From Sashavirus 536P12: a DNA stretch of 55,927 nucleotides. Position 1 is the first letter of the stretch; the number at the start of each line of letters is the position of its first letter. Under the pieces are notes generated by a model that ran no database searches, was not told the DNA's origin, and saw only the letters and a program-made list of their open reading frames with translations. Positions 2,002 through 55,927 of the stretch are shown piece after piece. The translations under genes and the position numbers were made by a program. Location: sequence record OZ035768.1; one strand, 5' to 3'.

Positions 2002-2586
2002 TTACTCAGTGAAAAGTTTCACCAACAGTTTGTTAATGTCAGCATCATAAGCATCATAAGCAGCACGAGCAGCATAAGCATCAGCAGCACGAGCAGCACG
2101 AGCAGCACGAGCAGCACGAGCAGCACGAGCAGCATCATAAGCAGCACGAGCAGCATAAGCAGCAGCATAAGCAGCAGCACGAGCAGCACGAGCAGCATAA
2201 GCAGCATAAGCAGCAGCATAAGCAGCACGAGCAGCACGAGCAGCATCAGCAGCATCAGCAGCATCATAAGCAGCACGAGCAGCATAAGCAGCATAAGCAG
2301 CATTCTGTGATGGATTGTTAAGAAAATCCTGAATCAGATTAAAGTCATTCGTATAAGGTCGAATCAATTCGATATTCAACAAAGCACAATCGCAAGCGAA
2401 CCGAACGATTTTTTCTTTCGATAAGATTTTCCCGGCTAACCATAACAAGTCTGAAACGGTGTTTTCACCACCGATTAGACTAATAACTTCAACAGGTTCG
2501 TCAGTGTTGTTAGTCTGAATGATGAAACGTTTAAAACCTTCCTGACATGCGCCAAAATTTTTCAGTTCTTGTTTAGTGATTTTCAT
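2002..2586 (-). CDS. protein with N-terminal globular domain and C-terminal Ala-Ala-(Arg/Tyr/Asp) tripeptide repeat array
   Basis: 194-aa ORF; residues ~95-185 are AAY/AAR/AAD repeats encoded by a near-perfect 9-bp tandem DNA array; GAGGG SD upstream of ATG at 2586; driven by promoter P2. Confidence 0.6.
   Translation of the reverse strand: MKITKQELKNFGACQEGFKRFIIQTNNTDEPVEVISLIGGENTVSDLLWLAGKILSKEKIVRFACDCALLNIELIRPYTNDFNLIQDFLNNPSQNAAYAAYAARAAYDAADAADAARAARAAYAAAYAAYAARAARAAAYAAAYAARAAYDAARAARAARAARAARAADAYAARAAYDAYDADINKLLVKLFTE
2035..2303. repeat. tandem 9-bp (3-codon) repeat array (agcacgagc / agcataagc / agcatcagc), ~30 units
   Basis: directly visible periodicity in sequence 2035-2303; lies inside the 2002..2586 CDS. 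Confidence 0.9.
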
Positions 2587-9189: not shown

Positions 9190-9235
9190 ACTAAAGCATA
9201 ATCGCATGTTTGCAATCTGTCAAGAATTATTTTAA
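9190..9235 (-). promoter_or_regulatory. conserved promoter element (P4)
   Basis: GTCAAGAATTATTTTAA at 9219-9235; minus-strand -35 TTGACA, 17-nt spacer, -10 TATGCT. Confidence 0.65.
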
Positions 9236-9305
9236 CACCGTGCAAAAAAACCATCACTGATATAACATACGTTAAGAACCGTAAACCGTATGGAGCCTGT
9301 AGAAC

Positions 9306-11411: not shown

Positions 11412-11459
11412 GTTTGTAGGTTACACGTCCTTGTGTAATCCATCAAGAATTATTTTAAA
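11412..11459 (-). promoter_or_regulatory. conserved promoter element (P5, -35 variant TTGATG)
   Basis: ATCAAGAATTATTTTAAA at 11442-11459. Confidence 0.6.
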
Positions 11460-11698
11460 TTATCGTAGACAGGCGGTAAACCCATTGCGGCCTGTACAGA
11501 CCGTTTTTCGTATTCCTCCCGCAGTTTCTGAAGCTGTTCAATACCGATGTCACAACCACGCATAATATCAGCGCACAGGTCGTTGTAGGTCGCTTCAGAT
11601 TGCTTGCAGTGTGGGTAATCAACACAGGATGGATCTGCAATAATGACTTTCGGCAGATACGCGACAGTATCGCCCATTGCGTTCTTAAATATCGTCAT
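11450..11698 (-). CDS. hypothetical protein
   Basis: 82-aa ORF; last codons overlap the UP-like part of P5. Confidence 0.45.
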   Translation of the reverse strand: MTIFKNAMGDTVAYLPKVIIADPSCVDYPHCKQSEATYNDLCADIMRGCDIGIEQLQKLREEYEKRSVQAAMGLPPVYDNLK

Positions 11699-16229: not shown

Positions 16230-16277
16230 GTGATAAAGATACCCCACCGCTTGTAATCCGTCAAGAATTATTTTAAA
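16230..16277 (-). promoter_or_regulatory. conserved promoter element (P7)
   Basis: GTCAAGAATTATTTTAAA at 16260-16277; minus-strand -35 TTGACG, -10 TATCTT. Confidence 0.65.
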
Positions 16278-16560
16278 GGTACAGCTAATACAGAACGTGT
16301 ACTAACTGCACATAGTTCTACATAGGTTTCATGATTTTGAGTTGCAGCTAATACAGAACGTGTATTAGTAGATCATGGGTTCATAGATTTCGTCATGTTT
16401 ATTTTTTAACCAACCTCTCTCTATCTTATTCTTTTTATTATCTTTTTATAATAAACATGATAAACATAGATAAATAGAAGAGTAGTATAAGTAGTATAAG
16501 TTGCTGCAAGTAGGAGAGGTTTAAAAGGTATAGGGAGTCGCATACTTCCCATGAATCTAT
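16278..16560. repeat. iteron-rich AT-rich region A (candidate origin or regulatory hub)
   Basis: two copies of AGCTAATACAGAACGTGTA; a 69-bp block (16382-16450) ~97% identical to 55578-55646; inverted arms CATAGATTTCGTCATG / CATGAATCTATACG flank the AT-rich core. Confidence 0.7.
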
Positions 16561-16603
16561 ACGTAAAATAATTCTTGACGGATTACACCGACACAACTAC
16601 CCT
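16561..16603 (+). promoter_or_regulatory. conserved promoter element (P8, + orientation)
   Basis: AAAATAATTCTTGACGGATTACA with TTGACG at 16575-16580; divergent from P7 across region A. Confidence 0.6.
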
Positions 16604-19087: not shown

Positions 19088-20110
19088 ATGAGTTACAAAC
19101 AGAATTTTCGCGACGTTGGCGCACCAGATACATTCCTGTCTAACTTTTCTGTAAGTTACTGGCAGGATACATCACTGTTTGTCGGCACTCGTTATTTCCC
19201 GGTAGTTCCTGTTAATCAGGCTGCTGGTAAGTTTCTGACTTACCCGAAAGGGTATTTCGGTCGTCCGGTTAACTCCAAACGTGCCGAAGATGGTGTTGCT
19301 AACACTATTGGTTACAAAACCAAAAACCAGGGTTACACCGTTGATGACGATGCGATCCGTATCTTCATTTCTGACAAAAAACGTGCAAACGTTCAGAACG
19401 GTCAGCAACTGGATATGGAAGCATCTGCAGTAACCACGGACGCGTTGTTGATTAACAAAGAAGTGGATTTTGCTGAAAAATTCCTGACCGCTGGTAAATG
19501 GGGTCTTAATTTCCAGGGTAATAAAGATGCGTCTTTGTCCACGGGTGAATTCCTGAAATGGTCTAATGCGAATGCCGATCCGATTGGTGACATCCTGTCA
19601 CGGCGTGTTGCGTTCTCCCTGGCATCCGGTGGTCGTCGCTGGAACAAAGCACTGATGACGCTGGACGTGTATGACGCACTGACCCGTAGCCCGGCTGTTA
19701 TTGACCGTATTAACGGTGGTTCTACCACTCAGAATCCGGGAATCGTGACTAAACAGGCACTGGCTGCACTGCTGGAAGTTGACGAACTGGAAATCATGCA
19801 ATCTGTGGTCAACATGGCTACTGATGGCGTTGAAGACGTTAACGGCAATCCGCTGTCAAACTTCCAGTTTGCTAAAACTGGTGTGCTGATGCTCAACTAT
19901 GTTGAACCGACTGTTGGTAACATGAAACCTGTTGCTGCTGCTGGTTTCGTGTGGAACGAATTCATCGGTCTGGGTGTTAACAACGGTCCGTCTATCCGCA
20001 CCTATCCGGGTGTTGAAGGTCGTCGTGGTAATTTCGTTGAAGCGGAATTTGCCATTGATGTTCAGATGGTTGCACCTGATCTGGGCGTTCTGTTCTACGA
20101 CGCGGTTTAA
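19088..20110 (+). CDS. major capsid protein (lambda gpE-like)
   Basis: 340 aa; position after scaffold/decoration genes and followed by a strong terminator. Confidence 0.7.
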   Translation: MSYKQNFRDVGAPDTFLSNFSVSYWQDTSLFVGTRYFPVVPVNQAAGKFLTYPKGYFGRPVNSKRAEDGVANTIGYKTKNQGYTVDDDAIRIFISDKKRANVQNGQQLDMEASAVTTDALLINKEVDFAEKFLTAGKWGLNFQGNKDASLSTGEFLKWSNANADPIGDILSRRVAFSLASGGRRWNKALMTLDVYDALTRSPAVIDRINGGSTTQNPGIVTKQALAALLEVDELEIMQSVVNMATDGVEDVNGNPLSNFQFAKTGVLMLNYVEPTVGNMKPVAAAGFVWNEFIGLGVNNGPSIRTYPGVEGRRGNFVEAEFAIDVQMVAPDLGVLFYDAV

Positions 20111-20130
20111 TAACAACTGTGGTATTATTA

Positions 20131-20158
20131 AGGGGTGGCTTGTGCTGCCCCTTTTTTT
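20131..20158 (+). terminator. rho-independent terminator after major capsid gene
   Basis: AGGGGTGGCTTGTGCTGCCCCT hairpin plus T7. Confidence 0.7.
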
Positions 20159-20173
20159 CATGAGGTTAAAATC

Positions 20174-20527
20174 ATGCGTAATTCATATGATCCGTCACTG
20201 AAATATGTTTTCACCCGTCCGATACTGTGGAATGGTAAACAGATGTCCGCTGGCGATAAAGTATCAACATCAAAAGCTATCCCGGCTGTTTTAAATGCCC
20301 TTGTGCGTATGCGCCACATTGAACCAGCTACTGTGACCGTTGAAGAACCAGTGACTGTAGCAACCGAAGAATCGGCATCAACCACAGCTGCTGAAATCCG
20401 ACGTGACGCGCCAAAAACCTATAACGTTTATGTTATGGGTATGCCGATGAATTCAGAATCGTTTAGTAGTAAAAGTGCCGCTGCTGAATGGTGTGAATCA
20501 CAAGGCTTGACATATAACTATTCTTGA
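20174..20527 (+). CDS. hypothetical protein
   Basis: ORF 20135..20527; likely start ATG 20174 after GAGG. Confidence 0.4.
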   Translation: MRNSYDPSLKYVFTRPILWNGKQMSAGDKVSTSKAIPAVLNALVRMRHIEPATVTVEEPVTVATEESASTTAAEIRRDAPKTYNVYVMGMPMNSESFSSKSAAAEWCESQGLTYNYS

Positions 20528-20560
20528 CCTATTGTTAAGTCAGTGACAGAACTGCATAGC
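20517..20560 (+). promoter_or_regulatory. degenerate copy of conserved promoter element (+ orientation)
   Basis: TATAACTATTCTTGACC with TTGACC ~20523-20528; -10 not obvious. Confidence 0.25.
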
Positions 20561-20942
20561 AGACACTATCACTTAATCGGTCGAAAGACGCCGGATAAAC
20601 GTAACCGGCACATAACAGATAAGAGCATTGAGTTGTTTAAAGTGGTGCTGCGACGATTATCATACATCTCAGTGCTCTTATCGTTGTGGTGAATTGCAGT
20701 TCTTAGAAACAACCAGAAGATAAGCGCCTGGCACCGCAACCCAAACACTCGCTGATAAGGAGGTGATCCTTATCTTGCTGGCGGGAAAGCCGCAAATCGT
20801 GGGTAAAGCATGTTGTGAAACATCCTGAACTGCGTGTCGTTTTACATAACTGGTTATTCACGTGTCACGCATAGGGGTATGTTGGGACGTCAGGTGTGGA
20901 TGACCAGTTATGTAAAACCCTCATTATCACCCAGAGCCATTT

Positions 20943-20968
20943 GCCGTCTGTTTAAGACGGCTTTTTTT
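20943..20968 (+). terminator. rho-independent terminator inside noncoding island
   Basis: GCCGTCTGTTTAAGACGGC hairpin plus T7. Confidence 0.7.
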
Positions 20969-21007
20969 CGTGCTAATATAACGAAAACATTTCTCACAGG
21001 TGATCAC

Positions 21008-21418
21008 ATGGCTATTACAGTTGAAGGTATTCGTTATTTGATCAGTGTCCCTGATGTTACTGATGAACAAATTCAGTGGTACATTGACAACGGTTATACA
21101 AATCCTCTCAGTATTTGCGTCGCTCTCTGTGATTATATGGCGTCTATTGCCAGCAACGATACTGATATTAAAGTAGGCCCGATCTCACTCAGCAGTAGTC
21201 AGTCAGCAGACGCCTGGAATAAACTTAAAAAAGATTTTATTTTACGTATTAATACTGGCGCTGATTCAGGTGGCGGTTTGTTAGGTAATTTTATGGGTGT
21301 CGGTGGAGCTACATTAACTGGCGCTGGTATGCAACCTGCTATTCAGCGTGGTCAGTTCGACAACCCACCTGTAACACTTGAAAGTGGTGATCGTGCACTT
21401 AACGAGGGTGAACGGTGA
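21008..21418 (+). CDS. head-tail connector / adaptor protein candidate
   Basis: ORF 20834..21418 has an implausible N-terminal extension containing a terminator; likely start ATG 21008. Confidence 0.4.
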   Translation: MAITVEGIRYLISVPDVTDEQIQWYIDNGYTNPLSICVALCDYMASIASNDTDIKVGPISLSSSQSADAWNKLKKDFILRINTGADSGGGLLGNFMGVGGATLTGAGMQPAIQRGQFDNPPVTLESGDRALNEGER

Positions 21419-21792
21419 TGGCAGACAAACGTCAAAGTGTCCTGAACGGTGTTACTCGTGCACTTGCTGAAGTAGGTGAGGATTTGACGGTAAAACGTGT
21501 GACAACAGTTCCCAACCCGTCTAATCCTACATTACCGGGTACAACCGTTACTGAATCGCATACGTGCCGTGGTTATATTTACCCATTAGAAAAGTGGGAT
21601 CCGACTACTATGACCAGAATAACCACAACAATGGTAATTATGGATAGTCAGAGTTTTGAACCACGATTCGTTCCCGATCGGGGGGATGTTGTGGTTGATG
21701 AACGTGGTAAAGAATATCGCCTTCTTGATCGTCAAAACCCACGATTGTTAGGTGACGATATGGCGTTTATTCACCCTGTTGGAGCGGCCTGA
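21415..21792 (+). CDS. head closure / head-tail joining protein candidate
   Basis: 125 aa; C-terminal RGDVVVDERGKEYRLLD pattern; position. Confidence 0.4.
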   Translation: MMADKRQSVLNGVTRALAEVGEDLTVKRVTTVPNPSNPTLPGTTVTESHTCRGYIYPLEKWDPTTMTRITTTMVIMDSQSFEPRFVPDRGDVVVDERGKEYRLLDRQNPRLLGDDMAFIHPVGAA

Positions 21793-21793
21793 T

Positions 21794-22225
21794 ATGGCTA
21801 AGACTAACGTTAACGATATAAACCGGATAACAGGTGTCTTTAAAGACATTAAAGCCGACCTGCGAGATTTTACCGATCGTGAAGTCATCCGGTATGTCCT
21901 GACGTTACGTAATATTCTTGTCAGTGAACCACCTGACGGTACACCTGTGGATACAGGCTGGGCAAGCAACAACTGGTGGTTCGATCAGGGGCAACCCGCT
22001 AATAGTCCTGATACACCAACAGGTAATGTTGAAGCCAGTAAAGCACGTATCGAACAGGATACGGTCACTATCAGCAGTATTAAAGTTAATGGTCAGGAAC
22101 TGCATATTACTAACAACGTTCCTTACATTGGTGTTCTCAATGGTGGTAGCAGTACACAGACACCTTCCGGGTTTGTCGAACGTGCTATATTAAAAGCCGG
22201 AATAATGGTGAGGTTTAATCAGTGA
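21794..22225 (+). CDS. HK97 gp10-like neck / tail component candidate
   Basis: ORF 21752; likely start ATG 21794; DTGWASNNWWFD motif. Confidence 0.4.
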   Translation: MAKTNVNDINRITGVFKDIKADLRDFTDREVIRYVLTLRNILVSEPPDGTPVDTGWASNNWWFDQGQPANSPDTPTGNVEASKARIEQDTVTISSIKVNGQELHITNNVPYIGVLNGGSSTQTPSGFVERAILKAGIMVRFNQ

Positions 22226-24479: not shown

Positions 24480-24526
24480 AGTTAAAGATACCTTAACAGG
24501 TGTAATTCGTCAAGAATTATTTTAAA
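24480..24526 (-). promoter_or_regulatory. conserved promoter element (P9)
   Basis: CGTCAAGAATTATTTTAAA at 24508-24526; minus-strand -35 TTGACG, -10 TATCTT. Confidence 0.65.
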
Positions 24527-24590
24527 TATCTTGCGTAATTTGTACAGAACTATTACTATCTAATCGTCTACTACATAAAAGGTAAAAACC

Positions 24591-25322: not shown

Positions 25323-26217
25323 CATTTATGTAGTCGAGGATTGCGGGAGAATATTTAAACCACTCTGTAGCACCGTCAAAGCCTTTGAGACGCGCATTAA
25401 GTTCACGGAAGACCTTGTGTACCTCTTGTTCCAGTTTGTAAGCATCAGCGCCGTGTGGAAATGGATACGACACGAGTTTAACCACGGGGTGCGGAGTTCG
25501 TCGTTGTAGTTGTCGTAGTCGCTGTTTTAAGTCGTTTGTAACACCGACTTTAAGCAGAGTGGGACACTGTTTATCATCGGTTAACACGTAGAGTGTACCG
25601 GGTTCAAGTGGGTTGAAACCCGCTTGTGAACATTGTGGGCAAGCGTTTAAACAGCAATGGTTATTAGGAGTCTGTTCAAACACCCCATGCTCGGGACATA
25701 TTATTTTTACTCGAGTGAAATTATTAATATACTCCACCAGTGAGTAATCGTATTTGTTTCCGTGAATTTCACGAGCACGATTGACGAATTCTTCAGTAGT
25801 CAAGCGTTGTTGTTCAGACGACTGTTCCCGAGCACATTGTGGGCAACCTCTCCCGTGAACATGGTTGTTAGGAGTCTGTTCAAACACCCCATGCTCTGGG
25901 CATGTTATTTTTACTTTAGTATGAGCGCCTTTATGTTCCACCAACGAGTAATCGTATTTGTGTCCATGGAGTTCACGCGCCCGTGTGATGAATTCTTCTA
26001 CAGGTGATCGTTTTTGTTCTACCGCACACCATGGACACCCATGTTTCAAAGAAACATGATTATTAGGAATCTGTTCAAACACACCATGTTCTGGACAGGT
26101 GACCTTCACAGGAGTACACCAATTCACATACTCCACTAGCGAGTAATCGTATTTGTGCCCGTGAAGTTCACGGGCACGCGTGATAAACTCTTCTGTGGTT
26201 AAACGTTTCCTACTCAT
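25306..26217 (-). CDS. T5orf172 (GIY-YIG-like) domain protein with three N-terminal zinc-ribbon-like repeats (homing-endonuclease-like)
   Basis: 303 aa; three ~65-aa repeats (TTEEF..RARELHGHKYDYSLVEY...CPEHGVFEQ.PNNH...GCPxC); C-terminal LYVLTDD...LLKVGVTNDLKQRL matches the T5orf172 signature. Confidence 0.55.
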   Translation of the reverse strand: MSRKRLTTEEFITRARELHGHKYDYSLVEYVNWCTPVKVTCPEHGVFEQIPNNHVSLKHGCPWCAVEQKRSPVEEFITRARELHGHKYDYSLVEHKGAHTKVKITCPEHGVFEQTPNNHVHGRGCPQCAREQSSEQQRLTTEEFVNRAREIHGNKYDYSLVEYINNFTRVKIICPEHGVFEQTPNNHCCLNACPQCSQAGFNPLEPGTLYVLTDDKQCPTLLKVGVTNDLKQRLRQLQRRTPHPVVKLVSYPFPHGADAYKLEQEVHKVFRELNARLKGFDGATEWFKYSPAILDYINEKARN

Positions 26218-26398: not shown

Positions 26399-26452
26399 TT
26401 TGTAACCCTCCGTTGTTTTGTTGATTGTAGTTTACACACCATTGTGCAATCC

Positions 26453-26470
26453 GTCAAGAATTATTTTAAA
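26453..26470 (-). promoter_or_regulatory. conserved promoter element (P10)
   Basis: GTCAAGAATTATTTTAAA at 26453-26470; minus-strand -35 TTGACG. Confidence 0.65.
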
Positions 26471-26514
26471 CATTTGTCGCTTTTTAGACCCGTGTTAAAC
26501 TGTGTATATGCTTC

Positions 26515-44192: not shown

Positions 44193-44240
44193 TCGCTAAC
44201 TTTAAAAGGTGTTGTGTAATCTGTCAAGAATTATTTTACA
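44193..44240 (-). promoter_or_regulatory. conserved promoter element (P11)
   Basis: GTCAAGAATTATTTTACA at 44223-44240; minus-strand -35 TTGACA, -10 TAAAGT. Confidence 0.6.
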
Positions 44241-44255
44241 CTCGCCTTTCGTTGA

Positions 44256-49663: not shown

Positions 49664-49681
49664 TCATTGCACAAGGATGTG

Positions 49682-49723
49682 TAAAATAATTCTTGACGAA
49701 TTACAGAGGTGTGCGCTATAGTC
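49682..49723 (+). promoter_or_regulatory. conserved promoter element (P13, + orientation)
   Basis: TAAAATAATTCTTGACGAATTACA; -35 TTGACG 49693-49698, 18-nt spacer, -10 TATAGT 49717-49722. Confidence 0.7.
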
Positions 49724-51063: not shown

Positions 51064-51455
51064 TAATCGTCGTCACAGGTGGTCGTGACTTCAACGACAG
51101 AGTAGCAGTATTTTCCGCGTTAGGACTACTTCACAAACAATTCCCCATTACCGAACTAATTGAAGGTGGTGCGTCAGGTGTTGATAACCTGTGTAAGCAA
51201 TGGGCGCAGTTACACAGTATTCCTGTGCGTAGTTGCCCGGCAGCGTGGGACGATCTGACTGTACCTGGTGCGGTTGTAAAACAGGGCAAGCACGGGCCTT
51301 ATAACGCTGTTGCAGGTCATCAACGTAATCAGGCGATGTTAGAGGGTGAGCCACGCCCTACATATGGTGTTGTGTTCCCCGGTGGGCGTGGTACTGCTGA
51401 TATGCATCGTCGCATGTTGAAAGCTGGTTTAACTGTGTGGGTTCCATATCCTTAA
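51060..51455 (+). CDS. DUF2493 / SLOG-family protein (predicted nucleotide-binding)
   Basis: 131 aa; MIIVVTGGRDF...GGASGVDNL...GHQRNQAM...VVFPGGRGT pattern; stop overlaps promoter P14. Confidence 0.5.
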   Translation: MIIVVTGGRDFNDRVAVFSALGLLHKQFPITELIEGGASGVDNLCKQWAQLHSIPVRSCPAAWDDLTVPGAVVKQGKHGPYNAVAGHQRNQAMLEGEPRPTYGVVFPGGRGTADMHRRMLKAGLTVWVPYP

Positions 51456-51493
51456 AATAATTCTTGACAGATTACCAACCCTCCCCGATAATT
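51452..51493 (+). promoter_or_regulatory. conserved promoter element (P14, + orientation)
   Basis: TTAAAATAATTCTTGACAGATTACCA; -35 TTGACA 51464-51469, 17-nt spacer, -10 GATAAT 51487-51492. Confidence 0.7.
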
Positions 51494-55345: not shown

Positions 55346-55380
55346 TATCACACCCTTCTTGTTTGACCACGGGTAAATCA

Positions 55381-55927
55381 TAACGCGCGTTAGCAGCTAG
55401 TGCAAGACGTGCTTTATATGTTAGTGTGTTTACACCTAATGCATGTTGTGCATTAGCAGTTAGTGCAAGATGCACGTTGTGTATTAGCTGTTAGTGCACG
55501 TTGTGTATCTATGTTGGTACAGCTAATGCACGTTGTGAATTATATAATGCATGTTGTGCATTAAAGTTATACTTAACATAGATTTCGTCATGTTTACTTT
55601 TTAACCAACCCCTCTCTATCTTATTCTTTTTATTATCTTTTTATAGATAACATAGAAAACATAGATATAAAGAAGAAGTAGTATAGAAAGATAGAGATAG
55701 TGCATATAGTGTATTAGCTGTAAATAGAGCTAAAATAAAAGTCTGGGAGATACCTATTGTAATCTATGTTTTTATGCAAGTCTTTGAATTGATTGTGATT
55801 ATGGGCTACGTATTTATGTATGTAATCGAAAATTAGTGCATGTTGTGCACTAACTGTAAAATTAATACTAACGTTGTATTAGCTGTAAAACAGGGCGTGT
55901 GGACAACCCGTGGGTATCTGTGGGAAA
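55381..55927. repeat. iteron / operator-rich AT-rich region B (candidate origin, pac-proximal or regulatory region)
   Basis: multiple copies of TGCACGTTGTG / TATTAGCTG motifs; palindrome TTAGTGCA-N5-TGCACTAA (~55840-55860); 69-bp block 55578-55646 ~97% identical to 16382-16450; AT-rich core. Confidence 0.7.

What the first reader, a model, noticed from the sequence alone, without database searches (positions are those of the whole stretch)
20517..21007. ~480-bp noncoding island inside the head-tail structural module, with terminator and a perfect SD-in-hairpin
Between the gene ending at 20527 and the connector gene (21008) there is no credible ORF. The island has a degenerate copy of the conserved promoter (~20523), a hairpin GATAAGG-AGGTGAT-CCTTATC whose loop and stem contain TAAGGAGGTGATC (the full complement of the 16S rRNA 3' end), and a strong intrinsic terminator (20943-20968). 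The ORF-track extension of the connector gene runs through the terminator and is implausible. The island could encode a small RNA, a ribosome-binding decoy, or hold a packaging or regulatory site.
Basis: seen in the sequence. Interest (0 to 1): 0.5.

Follow-up and report, generated by a model that had tools for sequence, protein, structure and literature searches.

The report
Modular structured small-RNA gene island
The ~480-bp gap in this phage's head-tail genes is not empty spacer but most likely a small non-coding RNA gene assembled from folded RNA modules that many unrelated enterobacterial phages share, two of which are widespread, strongly supported by compensatory mutations, and absent from the RNA family catalogue.

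Summary
Window 20528-21007 has no conserved ORF, a 14-nt perfect complement of the 16S rRNA 3' tail inside a hairpin, and a strong intrinsic terminator.

The phage is a Sashavirus, 99.6% identical to Escherichia phage Bas82. The island looks like its own transcription unit: a sigma-70-like promoter (20507-20535), about 430 nt of very stable RNA (z = -6.5), then the terminator. A conserved extended -10 promoter restarts transcription for gene 21008.

The RNA is a chain of modules:
- leader hairpin
- long hairpin H
- three-way junction "mini-G"
- the SD-bearing module "S"
- a lineage-specific long hairpin
- terminator

S and mini-G each occur in at least 120 viral contigs. Both show strong covariation and neither matches Rfam. 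Full-size G modules match the core of prophage sRNA STnc100.

In sister phages the same slot holds tRNA-Ser, T-arm hairpins, an RprA-like 3' end and tmRNA-tag-like modules.

The SD hairpin stem is lineage-specific. The 16S-tail complement at a fixed distance from an invariant UUG is conserved. The 17-codon ORF is not.

Best reading: an autonomous multi-module sRNA precursor whose constant part (S) docks 30S subunits. Function is inferred, not shown.

The parts
20507..20535 (+). Sigma-70-type promoter-like site, TTGACA-17-TATTGT. It would start the island RNA near 20542. Its -35 element lies inside the last codons of the upstream gene.
   Evidence: 10 of 12 consensus matches. Unique in the window. 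Conserved as TTGACT-17-TATTGT in 9NA and Carvaje. This is a pattern match only; function was not tested.
20521..20528 (+). TTCTTGAC, the core of the promoter motif this phage repeats about 14 times (AAAATAATTCTTGACrrATTrCA). Here it has no -10 element in register.
   Evidence: It overlaps the stop codon of the upstream gene and is not conserved in 9NA (TTCGTGAC) or Carvaje (TTCTTAAC).
20590..20609 (+). Leader hairpin L: GCCGG-AUAAACGUAA-CCGGC.
   Evidence: Fold. The same hairpin carries a compensatory change (GCUGG...CCAGC) in Carvaje, L013 and L014, and is also present in LPST10.
20611..20688 (+). Module H: a long, nearly perfect hairpin with core arms 20618-20632 and 20668-20682 and the outer extension CAUAAC/GUUGUG. 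It is a candidate double-strand-specific (RNase III-type) processing site.
   Evidence: -36.3 kcal/mol, z = -5.8 (inverted repeat I2). About 35 distinct stem versions occur in other phages, with compensatory distal pairs and constant flanks ACAACA-GGUAAG...CUUWCC-GUUGUG.
20683..20740 (+). Module mini-G: a 58-nt three-way junction. P1 is 20683-20691 with 20732-20740. P2 is 20699-20701 with 20708-20710. P3 is 20713-20716 with 20728-20731. The junction AAUUGCAG and the loops are conserved.
   Evidence: 80-84% identical to P1/P7-type phages and to epsilon34. At least 120 IMG/VR contigs carry it. On 34 distinct copies, 93.4% of cells are paired, 9 pairs change on both sides, and 0 of 500 shuffles reach the observed score. 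Single copy in the window.
20750..20835 (+). Module S. It contains the 16S-tail complement (20756-20769), the lineage-specific hairpin 20754-20761 / 20767-20774, the invariant UUGCUG (20775-20780), hairpin H1 at 20781-20784 / 20790-20793 with loop GAAAG, and a long arm made of P2 (20798-20802 / 20830-20834) and P3 (20807-20814 / 20819-20826) capped by a GUGA tetraloop.
   Evidence: At least 120 IMG/VR contigs and 22 species genomes carry it. For covariation on 62 copies, the score is 0.408 against 0.203 for shuffles (0 of 500), and all 7 P3 pairs change on both sides. It is 91-96% conserved across genera. It has no Rfam match.
20839..20918 (+). Long hairpin Y, with 23-nt arms. It sits in a 93-nt insertion found only in Sasha-type phages.
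   Evidence: Inverted repeat I1. -39.4 kcal/mol, z = -5.8. Present only in Sasha-like loci. Its loop ATAGGGGTATGT resembles a stretch in LPST10.
20943..20968 (+). Intrinsic terminator: GCCGUCU-GUUUA-AGACGGC followed by U7.
   Evidence: Conserved in all relatives. In L013 it is replaced by an RprA-like 3' half.
20971..20979 (+). Extended -10 promoter-like element TGcTAATAT, placed to restart transcription for gene 21008. The gene's SD is AGGTGA at 20998-21003.
   Evidence: Read. Conserved as TGcTAAAAT (Carvaje), TGcTAGAAT (L013) and TGaTAGAAT (9NA). Not tested for function.

Best explanation
The island is an autonomous non-coding RNA gene.

Transcription (inferred from sequence). A sigma-70-type promoter at the end of the upstream gene starts a transcript of about 430 nt, which stops at the intrinsic terminator at 20943-20968. 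The downstream head-tail genes restart from their own extended -10 promoter.

Architecture (shown by folding and comparison). The transcript is a chain of independently folding modules: leader hairpin, long hairpin H, three-way junction mini-G, module S, long hairpin Y, terminator. These modules are portable cassettes. Closely similar copies, in different orders and combinations, sit in untranslated parts of operons or in stand-alone units of many unrelated enterobacterial phages. In sister phages the same slot also holds a true tRNA-Ser, T-arm-bearing tRNA-like hairpins, an RprA-like sRNA end and tmRNA-tag-like modules.

Processing (inferred). The primary transcript is probably a precursor. 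The two long, near-perfect hairpins (H and Y) flank mini-G plus S, as RNase III stems flank rRNAs. The tRNA-acceptor-like closing stems would mark further cleavage sites.

Function (inferred). S is the one module present in every 9NA-like relative. It keeps a 9-14-nt complement to the 16S rRNA 3' tail at a fixed distance from an invariant UUG, followed by covarying hairpins. It therefore most likely works as a translation-initiation-region mimic that docks 30S subunits without making a conserved peptide. The purpose could be to stabilise the RNA, to load or hold ribosomes, or to titrate them.
For: Transcription unit:
- Promoter-like site and terminator.
- The terminator and a downstream extended -10 element are conserved in three genera.
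- The same kinds of modules form stand-alone units, with their own promoter and terminator, on the strand opposite to the neighbouring genes in ZCEC13 and LPST10.

Non-coding:
-.
- The S mini-ORF loses its stop codon or its proline through changes that keep the hairpin.

Structure:
- Whole island z = -6.5. H and Y z = -5.8 each.
- Covariation of S and mini-G. Compensatory variants of the H stem.
- The helices contain many G-U pairs, which exist only on the + strand RNA.

Conservation:
- S is 91-96% identical across genera, against 81-83% for the adjacent gene.
- S and mini-G each occur in at least 120 viral contigs.

Small-RNA and tRNA cassette character:
- tRNA-Ser sits in the same slot in Carvaje, L013 and L014.
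- P1 copies lie directly after tRNA-Asn and tRNA-Thr in the ban operon leader.
- Full-size G modules match the core of the STnc100 sRNA model.
- L013 has an RprA-like end.

30S docking:
- Across 94 distinct contexts, the median duplex with the 16S tail is -18.4 kcal/mol against -5.6 for shuffles.
- The paired tract ends 3-5 nt before the invariant UUG.
- The recurrent substitutions in GGUGAUC (A to G, C to U) would still pair with an unchanging partner GAUCACC.
Against: - No transcript data exist for this phage, so promoter use, RNA ends and processing are all predictions.
- The -35 element lies in coding sequence, so part of its conservation may be due to the protein.
- In about half of its 129 distinct contexts, S is followed directly by an SD-ATG gene rather than a terminator. 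That fits a cis-acting leader role as well as a trans-acting RNA.
- In most copies the purine tract of the SD-like element can pair with an upstream ACCCC to form hairpin P0 (helix 1). Its SD-likeness could therefore be partly a by-product of that helix.
- In the window the tract is half buried in a stable hairpin.
- The minimum-free-energy fold of the whole island does not form the mini-G closing stem, because GUUGUG can pair on either side.
- No function is known for any of the related RNAs (STnc100/PasD).
Confidence: 0.5

Rival explanations
1. The island is a cis-acting leader or attenuator for the head-tail genes. It would be transcribed as part of the structural operon. S would be a processive antiterminator, or a Rho-shielding or translation-loading element acting on the same transcript. 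The terminator at 20943-20968 would be the regulated stop that sets the ratio of head proteins to connector and tail proteins.
For: - S lies on the sense strand, just upstream of a strong terminator, in all 9NA-like phages.
- In prophages S lies on the sense strand of the late operon, between the lysis genes and the terminase genes.
- In 65 of 129 contexts S is followed first by an SD-ATG gene.
- mini-G sits in the PL leader just before N-like genes.
- Another terminator follows the capsid gene at 20130-20153, so graded read-through is plausible here.
Against: - A conserved extended -10 promoter follows the terminator directly, so the downstream genes need no read-through.
- ZCEC13 and LPST10 carry the modules in stand-alone units that converge on their neighbouring genes.
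- The known RNA antiterminator, HK022 put, is a different two-hairpin element placed right after early promoters (PMC9378689).
- The boxA-like string GCUCUUA in H is buried in a stem, and it varies with compensatory changes.
Confidence: 0.22
2. The island is decayed cargo with no function of its own. It would be a recombination-prone slot where tRNA or sRNA cassettes are gained and lost. The window would hold degenerate tRNA-like remnants and mosaic junction sequences kept by recent horizontal transfer rather than by selection. Alternatively it would be a DNA-level site such as a packaging signal or a Dam (GATC) site.
For: - The 5' two-thirds of the island is highly mosaic among close relatives, with insertions of 190-700 nt.
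- No canonical tRNA is present in the window.
- The linker words CACAAC and GUUGUG recur at module borders and could serve as recombination points.
- S contains a conserved GATC.
- In several Jedunavirus records S lies within about 400 bp of the record end.
Against: - S and mini-G keep their helices through many independent compensatory changes and through G-U pairs specific to one strand. That indicates selection on the RNA.
- S is more conserved than the neighbouring genes.
- The mini-G variant is itself conserved in P1-like, P22-like and Sasha-like phages, so it is not a random deletion product.
Confidence: 0.12
3. The island encodes a small protein or regulatory peptide. Candidates are the 17-codon ORF that starts at UUG 20775 behind the perfect SD (a leader peptide or a lambda-bar-type minigene), one of the 49-59-aa ORFs, or an N-terminal extension of gene 21008.
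For: - A very strong SD sits at a workable distance from an invariant UUG.
- Most prophage copies read M-L-T-G-K-P-stop.
- 9NA and AVIO78A annotate the extended form of the downstream gene.
Against: - Stop and sense codons of the mini-ORF change in step with base pairing. ACG...UAA becomes GCG...CAA; CCG becomes CUG together with ACG to ACA; UAA becomes GAA.
- ORF length varies from 6 to more than 17 codons.
- The extension of gene 21008 is closed by stop codons in PJ16, L009 and Carvaje-like phages.
- None of the ORFs has a family match.
Confidence: 0.04

Closest known systems
STnc100 / PasD prophage sRNA family (Rfam RF02076)
   Same: - The core of the model (positions 31-147) is a closing stem ..UGGUGAAU ... 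CACCA.. around internal hairpins, the last one being CCGG-loop-CCGG just before the 3' strand.
- This is the architecture of the full-size G modules. A P1 copy scores 33.4 bits.
- The window's mini-G has it in reduced form: GUGGUGAAU...CCAG-loop-CUGG-CACC.
- Both sit in untranslated stretches of phage operons. STnc100 lies 75 nt downstream of stx2 (PMC12370729).
   Different: - The window's mini-G is 58 nt against about 120 nt.
- It gets no RF02076 hit even at E <= 10.
- It has its own conserved junction and loop sequences.
- The function of STnc100 is itself unknown.
Phage tRNA-region stable RNAs and polycistronic sRNA precursors: T4 species 1 and 2 RNAs, P1/P7 c4 RNA released by RNase P, DicF released by RNase III and E (my own knowledge of these systems)
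   Same: - Small structured RNAs are co-transcribed with, or take the place of, tRNAs.
- tRNA-acceptor-like closing stems are present.
- They lie in operon leaders.
- In sister phages tRNA-Ser occupies the same slot.
- In P1 the modules follow the DicF-like region, tRNA-Asn and tRNA-Thr.
   Different: - There is no sequence or covariance-model match to c4, DicF or tRNA in the window.
- Processing here is only inferred.
SD-like elements that bind 30S without translation, such as the STAB-SD mRNA stabiliser of Bacillus cryIIIA (my own knowledge)
   Same: An unusually long complement to the 16S 3' end is conserved, but it is not tied to a conserved ORF.
   Different: - STAB-SD is a bare sequence near a 5' end in Gram-positive bacteria.
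- S is a roughly 90-nt covarying structure in enterobacterial phages, with an invariant UUGCUG and GNRA-type loops.
- Stabilisation was not tested.
HK022 put antiterminator RNA (PMC9378689)
   Same: It is a cis-encoded structured phage RNA of 70-100 nt, lying on the sense strand upstream of terminators.
   Different: - put is two long stem-loops immediately downstream of PL and PR, and it binds the RNA polymerase beta' zinc-binding domain.
- S has a different layout, occurs in late or structural regions, and also occurs in stand-alone units.
- The two sequences were not compared directly.
tmRNA (SsrA)
   Same: - This applies only to the sister-phage T module, not to the window.
- It has a pseudoknot, an A-rich spacer, then GCA AAC GA. 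opening a 10-codon ORF that ends in ..LAVA, ..MVAA or ..LMAA.
- Its stop codon lies in a hairpin.
   Different: - No canonical alanine-accepting tRNA-like domain was found.
- ARAGORN calls these only at a relaxed threshold.
- The module is absent from the window.

Membership tests
Any Rfam 15 family | Covariance-model score at or above the family's gathering threshold | tested here: not met
   The cmscan of window 19500-22000 at E <= 10 gave only chance-level hits; the best was 22.9 bits against a threshold of 100. Six prophage loci carrying S gave no hit on S.
tRNA | Cloverleaf with an anticodon arm, detectable by ARAGORN or by RF00005 | tested here: not met
   There are no tRNAs in the whole window and no RF00005 hit. 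The same slot does hold tRNA-Ser(GCU) in Carvaje, L013 and L014.
tmRNA | tRNA-like domain plus a tag reading frame | tested here: not met
   ARAGORN finds none in the window, nor at 90% or 80% of its thresholds. At 70% it makes only a spurious call. The tag-like module is absent from the window.
STnc100 (RF02076) | Match to the model; closing stem UGGUGAAU...CACCA around internal hairpins | tested here: inconclusive
   The window gets no hit at E <= 10. The closing-stem and terminal-hairpin layout is shared, and a full-size P1 G module scores 33.4 bits against a threshold of 47. This is a resemblance, not membership.
C4 antisense RNA (P1/P7) | Match to the Rfam model; loops complementary to a target next to an RBS on the same transcript | tested here: not met
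   No Rfam hit. An 8-nt complementarity between the mini-G loop AAGAUAAG and CUUAUCUU next to the SD does exist in the window (I4). It is not conserved where mini-G occurs without S.
Intrinsic (Rho-independent) terminator | G+C-rich hairpin followed directly by a U tract | tested here: met
   A 7-bp stem with 5 G-C pairs, a 5-nt loop and U7. -12.8 kcal/mol, z = -4.9. Conserved in relatives.
Sigma-70 promoter | -35 and -10 hexamers with 16-18 nt spacing; activity in vivo | tested here: inconclusive
   TTGACA-17-TATTGT matches 10 of 12 positions and is conserved in two other genera. The region as a whole has no more promoter-like sites than shuffles (8 against 7.6). Activity cannot be tested here.
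Lambda bar-type minigene or leader peptide | SD plus a short ORF whose codons or stop are conserved | tested here: not met
   The stop and the last sense codon change with compensatory partners. ORF length ranges from 6 to more than 17 codons.
NusB/E boxA antitermination site | Single-stranded GCUCUUUA-type boxA | tested here: not met
   GCUCUUA is present at 20674-20680, but it forms the 3' strand of the H stem. In other copies it is replaced by GCCCUUA, GUUCUUU or AAUCUUU together with compensatory 5' changes.
30S-docking SD-like element (STAB-SD type) | Conserved complement to the 16S 3' tail that is not used for a conserved ORF; binding to 30S subunits | tested here: inconclusive
   The complement is conserved and the ORF is not. 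Binding and any stabilising effect cannot be tested with these tools.

The most novel reading that the evidence does not exclude
The island may be one instance of an unrecognised system of phage RNAs aimed at the ribosome.
- Its parts are exchangeable cassettes: the super-SD module S, tRNA-like G and H modules, true tRNAs, and tmRNA-tag-like modules. The tag modules encode ANDDLMMVAA-type tags and are found even in phage P1.
- The cassettes would be strung into precursor transcripts.
- Together they would capture, rescue or reprogram host ribosomes, or act as decoys for tRNA- and ribosome-targeting defence nucleases.
- S would then be a new class of 30S-binding RNA.
Probability: 0.17. Interest if true: 0.85.

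Novelty: new variant of a known kind. Interest (0 to 1): 0.64.

Why it matters
The island turns an 'empty' gap in a model-collection phage (a BASEL-type Sashavirus) into an entry point to at least three widespread structured RNA motifs: S, mini-G and H.
- S and mini-G are supported by covariation counts, and H by compensatory variants of its stem.
- S and mini-G get no Rfam match, and S is unannotated in every phage record examined.
- They are shared by virulent and temperate phages of Escherichia, Salmonella, Klebsiella, Yersinia, Enterobacter and others.

It also links these motifs to two things: the poorly understood STnc100/PasD prophage sRNAs, and phage tRNA cassettes.

If S really docks 30S subunits, it would be a compact, portable ribosome-binding RNA used by many phages. 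Because the host phage is easy to grow, this can be tested directly.

The comparison also uncovered tmRNA-tag-like modules in P1 and many other phages. These bear on how phages deal with stalled ribosomes.

Tried and rejected
- tRNA or tmRNA in the window: none found.
- Known RNA families: none match.
- Peptide-coding readings of the 17-codon ORF, the 49-59-aa ORFs and the extension of gene 21008: rejected.
- The minus-strand ORF PJ16_048 across the sister-phage insertion has no PHROG family.
- The SD hairpin as the conserved feature: rejected, because the stem is lineage-specific.
- boxA/nut reading of H: rejected, because the string is paired and covaries. In epsilon34 a separate boxB-like hairpin lies upstream of mini-G.
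- mini-G acting as an antisense regulator of S through AAGAUAAG/CUUAUCUU: possible in the window, but the two modules are adjacent only in Sasha-type phages.
- Hammerhead-like or other ribozyme cores: not seen by eye and no Rfam hit.
- DNA-level packaging site: not supported, because the G-U pairing is strand-specific.
- Searching E. coli genomes for the prophage-type S found only 7 genomes, and none annotates it.
- A loose pattern scan, GGTGATC..TCTTGCTG, returned mostly chance matches and only 4-5 new true copies.
- Literature searches for tmRNA-like phage RNAs, for the tag strings and for phage tRNA-like ncRNAs found no description of these modules.
Full report
**Identity of the window and check of the observation**

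The window is a 9NA-like siphophage of the Sashavirus group. It is 99.6% identical over the query to Escherichia phage KarinMuster_Bas82 and 98.3% identical to Salmonella phage Sasha.

The island lies between two genes:
- a 117-aa gene of unknown function (phrog_19242), which ends at 20527;
- a 136-aa gene (phrog_21889), which starts at ATG 21008 and is followed by the head-closure gene.

- The hairpin is GAUAAGGA (20754-20761) / UCCUUAUC (20767-20774).
- The complement of the 16S 3' end is 14 nt long (20756-20769).
- The terminator is 20943-20961 plus U7.
- No island ORF has a family match.
- The upstream extension of gene 21008 is closed by stop codons in PJ16, L009 and the Carvaje-like phages, so the gene starts at 21008.
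- The 'degenerate conserved promoter' is the core TTCTTGAC of a motif present about 14 times in the genome. At the island it lacks a -10 element.
- The better candidate promoter is TTGACA-17-TATTGT at 20507-20535, which is conserved in 9NA and Carvaje.
- The island RNA folds at -155.4 kcal/mol, z = -6.5.

**The island is conserved at its 3' end and mosaic at its 5' end**

Local BLAST against relatives gives three results.
- Window 20744/20758-20835 is 91-96% identical in 9NA, in the Klebsiella phage Carvaje and in four metagenomic relatives.
- The adjacent terminator-to-gene segment is only 81-83% identical.
- The upstream gene is about 66-87% identical.

Between the promoter and 20744, relatives carry quite different inserts. 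Carvaje, L013 and L014 have a true tRNA-Ser(GCU) immediately upstream of the conserved part. 9NA has neither H nor mini-G. After the terminator, all relatives keep an extended -10 element, TGnTAnAAT (read).

**Module S (20750-20835)**

It also occurs in 22 species genomes of Enterobacter, Yersinia, Serratia, Pantoea, Citrobacter and others.

In prophages S sits on the sense strand between the lysis genes and the terminase genes.

On 62 copies sharing less than 93% identity (alignment A1), a four-helix structure is supported:
- 84.6% of cells are paired, against 73.2% in shuffles;
- the covariation score is 0.408 against 0.203, reached by 0 of 500 shuffles;
- sliding the partners lowers pairing to 25-47%;
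- all 7 pairs of the distal helix change on both sides, and that helix is capped by a GNGA tetraloop.

Many pairs are G-U, so the structure exists on the + strand RNA only.

The short ORF behind the SD is not conserved. ACG...UAA becomes GCG...CAA; CCG becomes CUG together with ACG to ACA; UAA becomes GAA. Each time, hairpin H1 is preserved.

What is conserved is GGUGAUC, 4-5 variable bases, and then AUCUUGCUG. Across 94 distinct contexts the region upstream of the UUG forms a predicted duplex with GAUCACCUCCUUA of median -18.4 kcal/mol, against -5.6 for shuffles. The duplex ends 3-5 nt before the UUG.

S has no Rfam match and is unannotated in every isolated phage that has it.

Of 129 distinct contexts:
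- 65 are followed first by an SD-ATG gene;
- 29 are followed first by a terminator;
- 35 are followed by neither, by my crude criteria.

**Module mini-G (20683-20740)**

This segment is 80-84% identical to a spot in P1/P7-type phages. There it lies about 70 nt after tRNA-Thr in the ban operon leader, antisense to the annotated plp ORF. It is also similar to a spot between PL and the N-like gene of epsilon34.

The word CAACCAGAAGATAAGC hits at least 120 viral contigs. Thirty-four distinct true copies (alignment A2) support a three-way junction:
- 93.4% of cells are paired, against 81.4% in shuffles;
- 9 pairs change on both sides;
- 0 of 500 shuffles reach the observed score;
- the closing stem has at least six different sequence versions.

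Larger 'G' modules share the same ends (GUUGUGGUGAAU ... CACCACAAC). Some carry a canonical T-arm. They replace mini-G in L007, L009, L010, L014, HK629, ZCEC13 and P1.

One P1 copy aligns to the core of Rfam STnc100 at 33.4 bits. STnc100 and PasD are prophage sRNAs of unknown function (PMC12370729; bioRxiv 10.64898/2026.05.13.724894).

**Modules H, L and Y**

H (20611-20688) is a long hairpin: -36.3 kcal/mol, z = -5.8. About 35 stem versions in other phages keep the ends ACAACA-GGUAAG...CUUWCC-GUUGUG while the distal pairs covary.

Its 3' extension GUUGUG is also the 5' strand of the mini-G closing stem, so the two pairings exclude each other.

The leader hairpin L shows a compensatory change in Carvaje-type phages.

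Y (20839-20918; -39.4 kcal/mol, z = -5.8) is confined to Sasha-type phages.

**Stand-alone units elsewhere**

In ZCEC13 the order is promoter, H, S, G, strong terminator. The unit lies on the strand opposite to the flanking baseplate genes.

In LPST10 a promoter, L, H, a G-like module and a terminator lie opposite to their neighbours.

S and mini-G are single-copy in the window and are adjacent only in Sasha-type phages. The modules therefore combine freely.

**Interpretation**

Shown:
- the island is non-coding;
- it folds exceptionally well;
- two of its modules are under selection for RNA structure;
- the modules are shared horizontally among many phage groups;
- sister phages put tRNA and sRNA-like cassettes in the same slot.

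Inferred:
- it is transcribed from its own promoter to its own terminator;
- the long hairpins and acceptor-like stems are processing sites;
- S docks 30S subunits through the 16S-tail complement.

The main rival is a cis-acting leader role. It is favoured by the many S copies that sit directly before genes. It is disfavoured by the promoter after the terminator and by the stand-alone units.

A decayed-cargo or DNA-site reading does not fit the strand-specific covariation. A peptide reading is contradicted by the substitution pattern.

**Comparison with known systems and novelty**

The nearest described relatives are:
- the STnc100/PasD sRNAs, which share architecture with G;
- phage tRNA-region stable RNAs and polycistronic sRNA precursors, which share context;
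- SD-like 30S-binding stabilisers, which share a possible mode of action with S.

No defining test for membership of any curated family is met. I therefore file the island as a new variant of a known kind, namely phage-encoded structured small RNAs in tRNA/sRNA cassette arrays. S and mini-G are apparently undescribed motif families.

**Seen in sister phages, not in the window**

A module of about 170 nt occurs in PJ16, L009, Carvaje, L013, L015 and P1. It carries:
- a pseudoknot;
- an A-rich spacer;
- GCA AAC GA. opening an ORF of exactly 10 codons, with 16 variants such as ANDDLMMVAA, ANEEMYLAVA and ANDEQFLAVA;
- its stop codon in a hairpin.

ARAGORN reports these tags only at relaxed thresholds.

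A 2014 census found ssrA among RefSeq viral and plasmid records only in eight mycobacteriophages, and named Bacillus phage G and mycobacteriophage DS6A from outside that set (PMC4131195). The tag strings are absent from the paper library.

Noticed in passing
L004 1340-1510; L006 1033-1200; L013 1790-1960; L015 1940-2100; L001 (phage P1) 810-960. Not present in the window.: tmRNA-like coding modules in sister phages and in P1. Each has a pseudoknot, an A-rich spacer, then GCA AAC GA. opening an ORF of exactly 10 codons plus stop. There are 16 peptide variants, for example ANDDLMMVAA, ANDDVVLMAA, ANEEMYLAVA and ANDEQFLAVA. The stop codon lies in a hairpin and a second pseudoknot follows. At least 120 IMG/VR contigs carry the module. 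No canonical tRNA-like domain was found. They seem unreported.
   Followed up: partly
L001 1401-1778 (phage P1 'plp' ORF, minus strand): The annotated putative lipoprotein gene plp of P1 lies antisense to the end of tRNA-Thr, to a T-arm-bearing H hairpin, to mini-G and to a further H/G pair. The conservation there is explained by the covarying plus-strand RNA modules, so the ORF may be spurious.
   Followed up: partly
L013 2368-2461; also L164, L240, L247 just after mini-G: The 3' end of the island in one relative is an RprA-like sRNA half, UUGCUGUGUGUAGUCUUUGCCCGUC plus terminator. It scores 63.9 bits against a gathering score of 70. The same seed-like string follows mini-G in three other viral contigs.
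   Followed up: no
window, about 14 sites, e.g. 1022-1052, 2833-2863, 9211-9241, 11434-11464, 16252-16282, 24501-24531, 26445-26475, 44215-44245 (minus strand) and 16558-16586, 49676-49704, 51447-51475 (plus strand): A phage-wide promoter family, AAAATAATTCTTGACrrATTrCA, with variable -10 elements. Several minus-strand copies share a longer 65-nt upstream region.
   Followed up: partly
window 20998-21007: The real ribosome-binding site of gene 21008 is AGGTGATCAC. It uses the same GGUGAUC word that is invariant in module S, so extended pairing to 16S GAUCACC is also used for genuine translation starts in this phage.
   Followed up: no
window 20548-20556 and 20695-20703: A perfect 9-nt complementarity (AGAACUGCA / UGCAGUUCU) links the 5' leader to the conserved junction of mini-G. 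The leader word is also conserved in relatives that lack mini-G, so a long-range pairing is uncertain.
   Followed up: no
window 2023-2328; 25646-26207; 16272-16481 with 55374-55877: Three sets of repeats were seen in passing. The first is a run of 9-nt-period tandem repeats (19 registers). The second is three 163-nt direct repeats. The third is a 100-nt repeat (90% identical) plus several short repeat families shared between about 16.3 kb and the window's right end.
   Followed up: no
H147-H151, H181-H182 (Klebsiella phages KB2, KLPPOU148, 1611E-K2-1, JD001): In several Jedunavirus-type records, module S lies within about 200-400 bp of the end of the linear record. This could reflect proximity to physical genome ends or merely a shared convention for where the record starts.
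   Followed up: no
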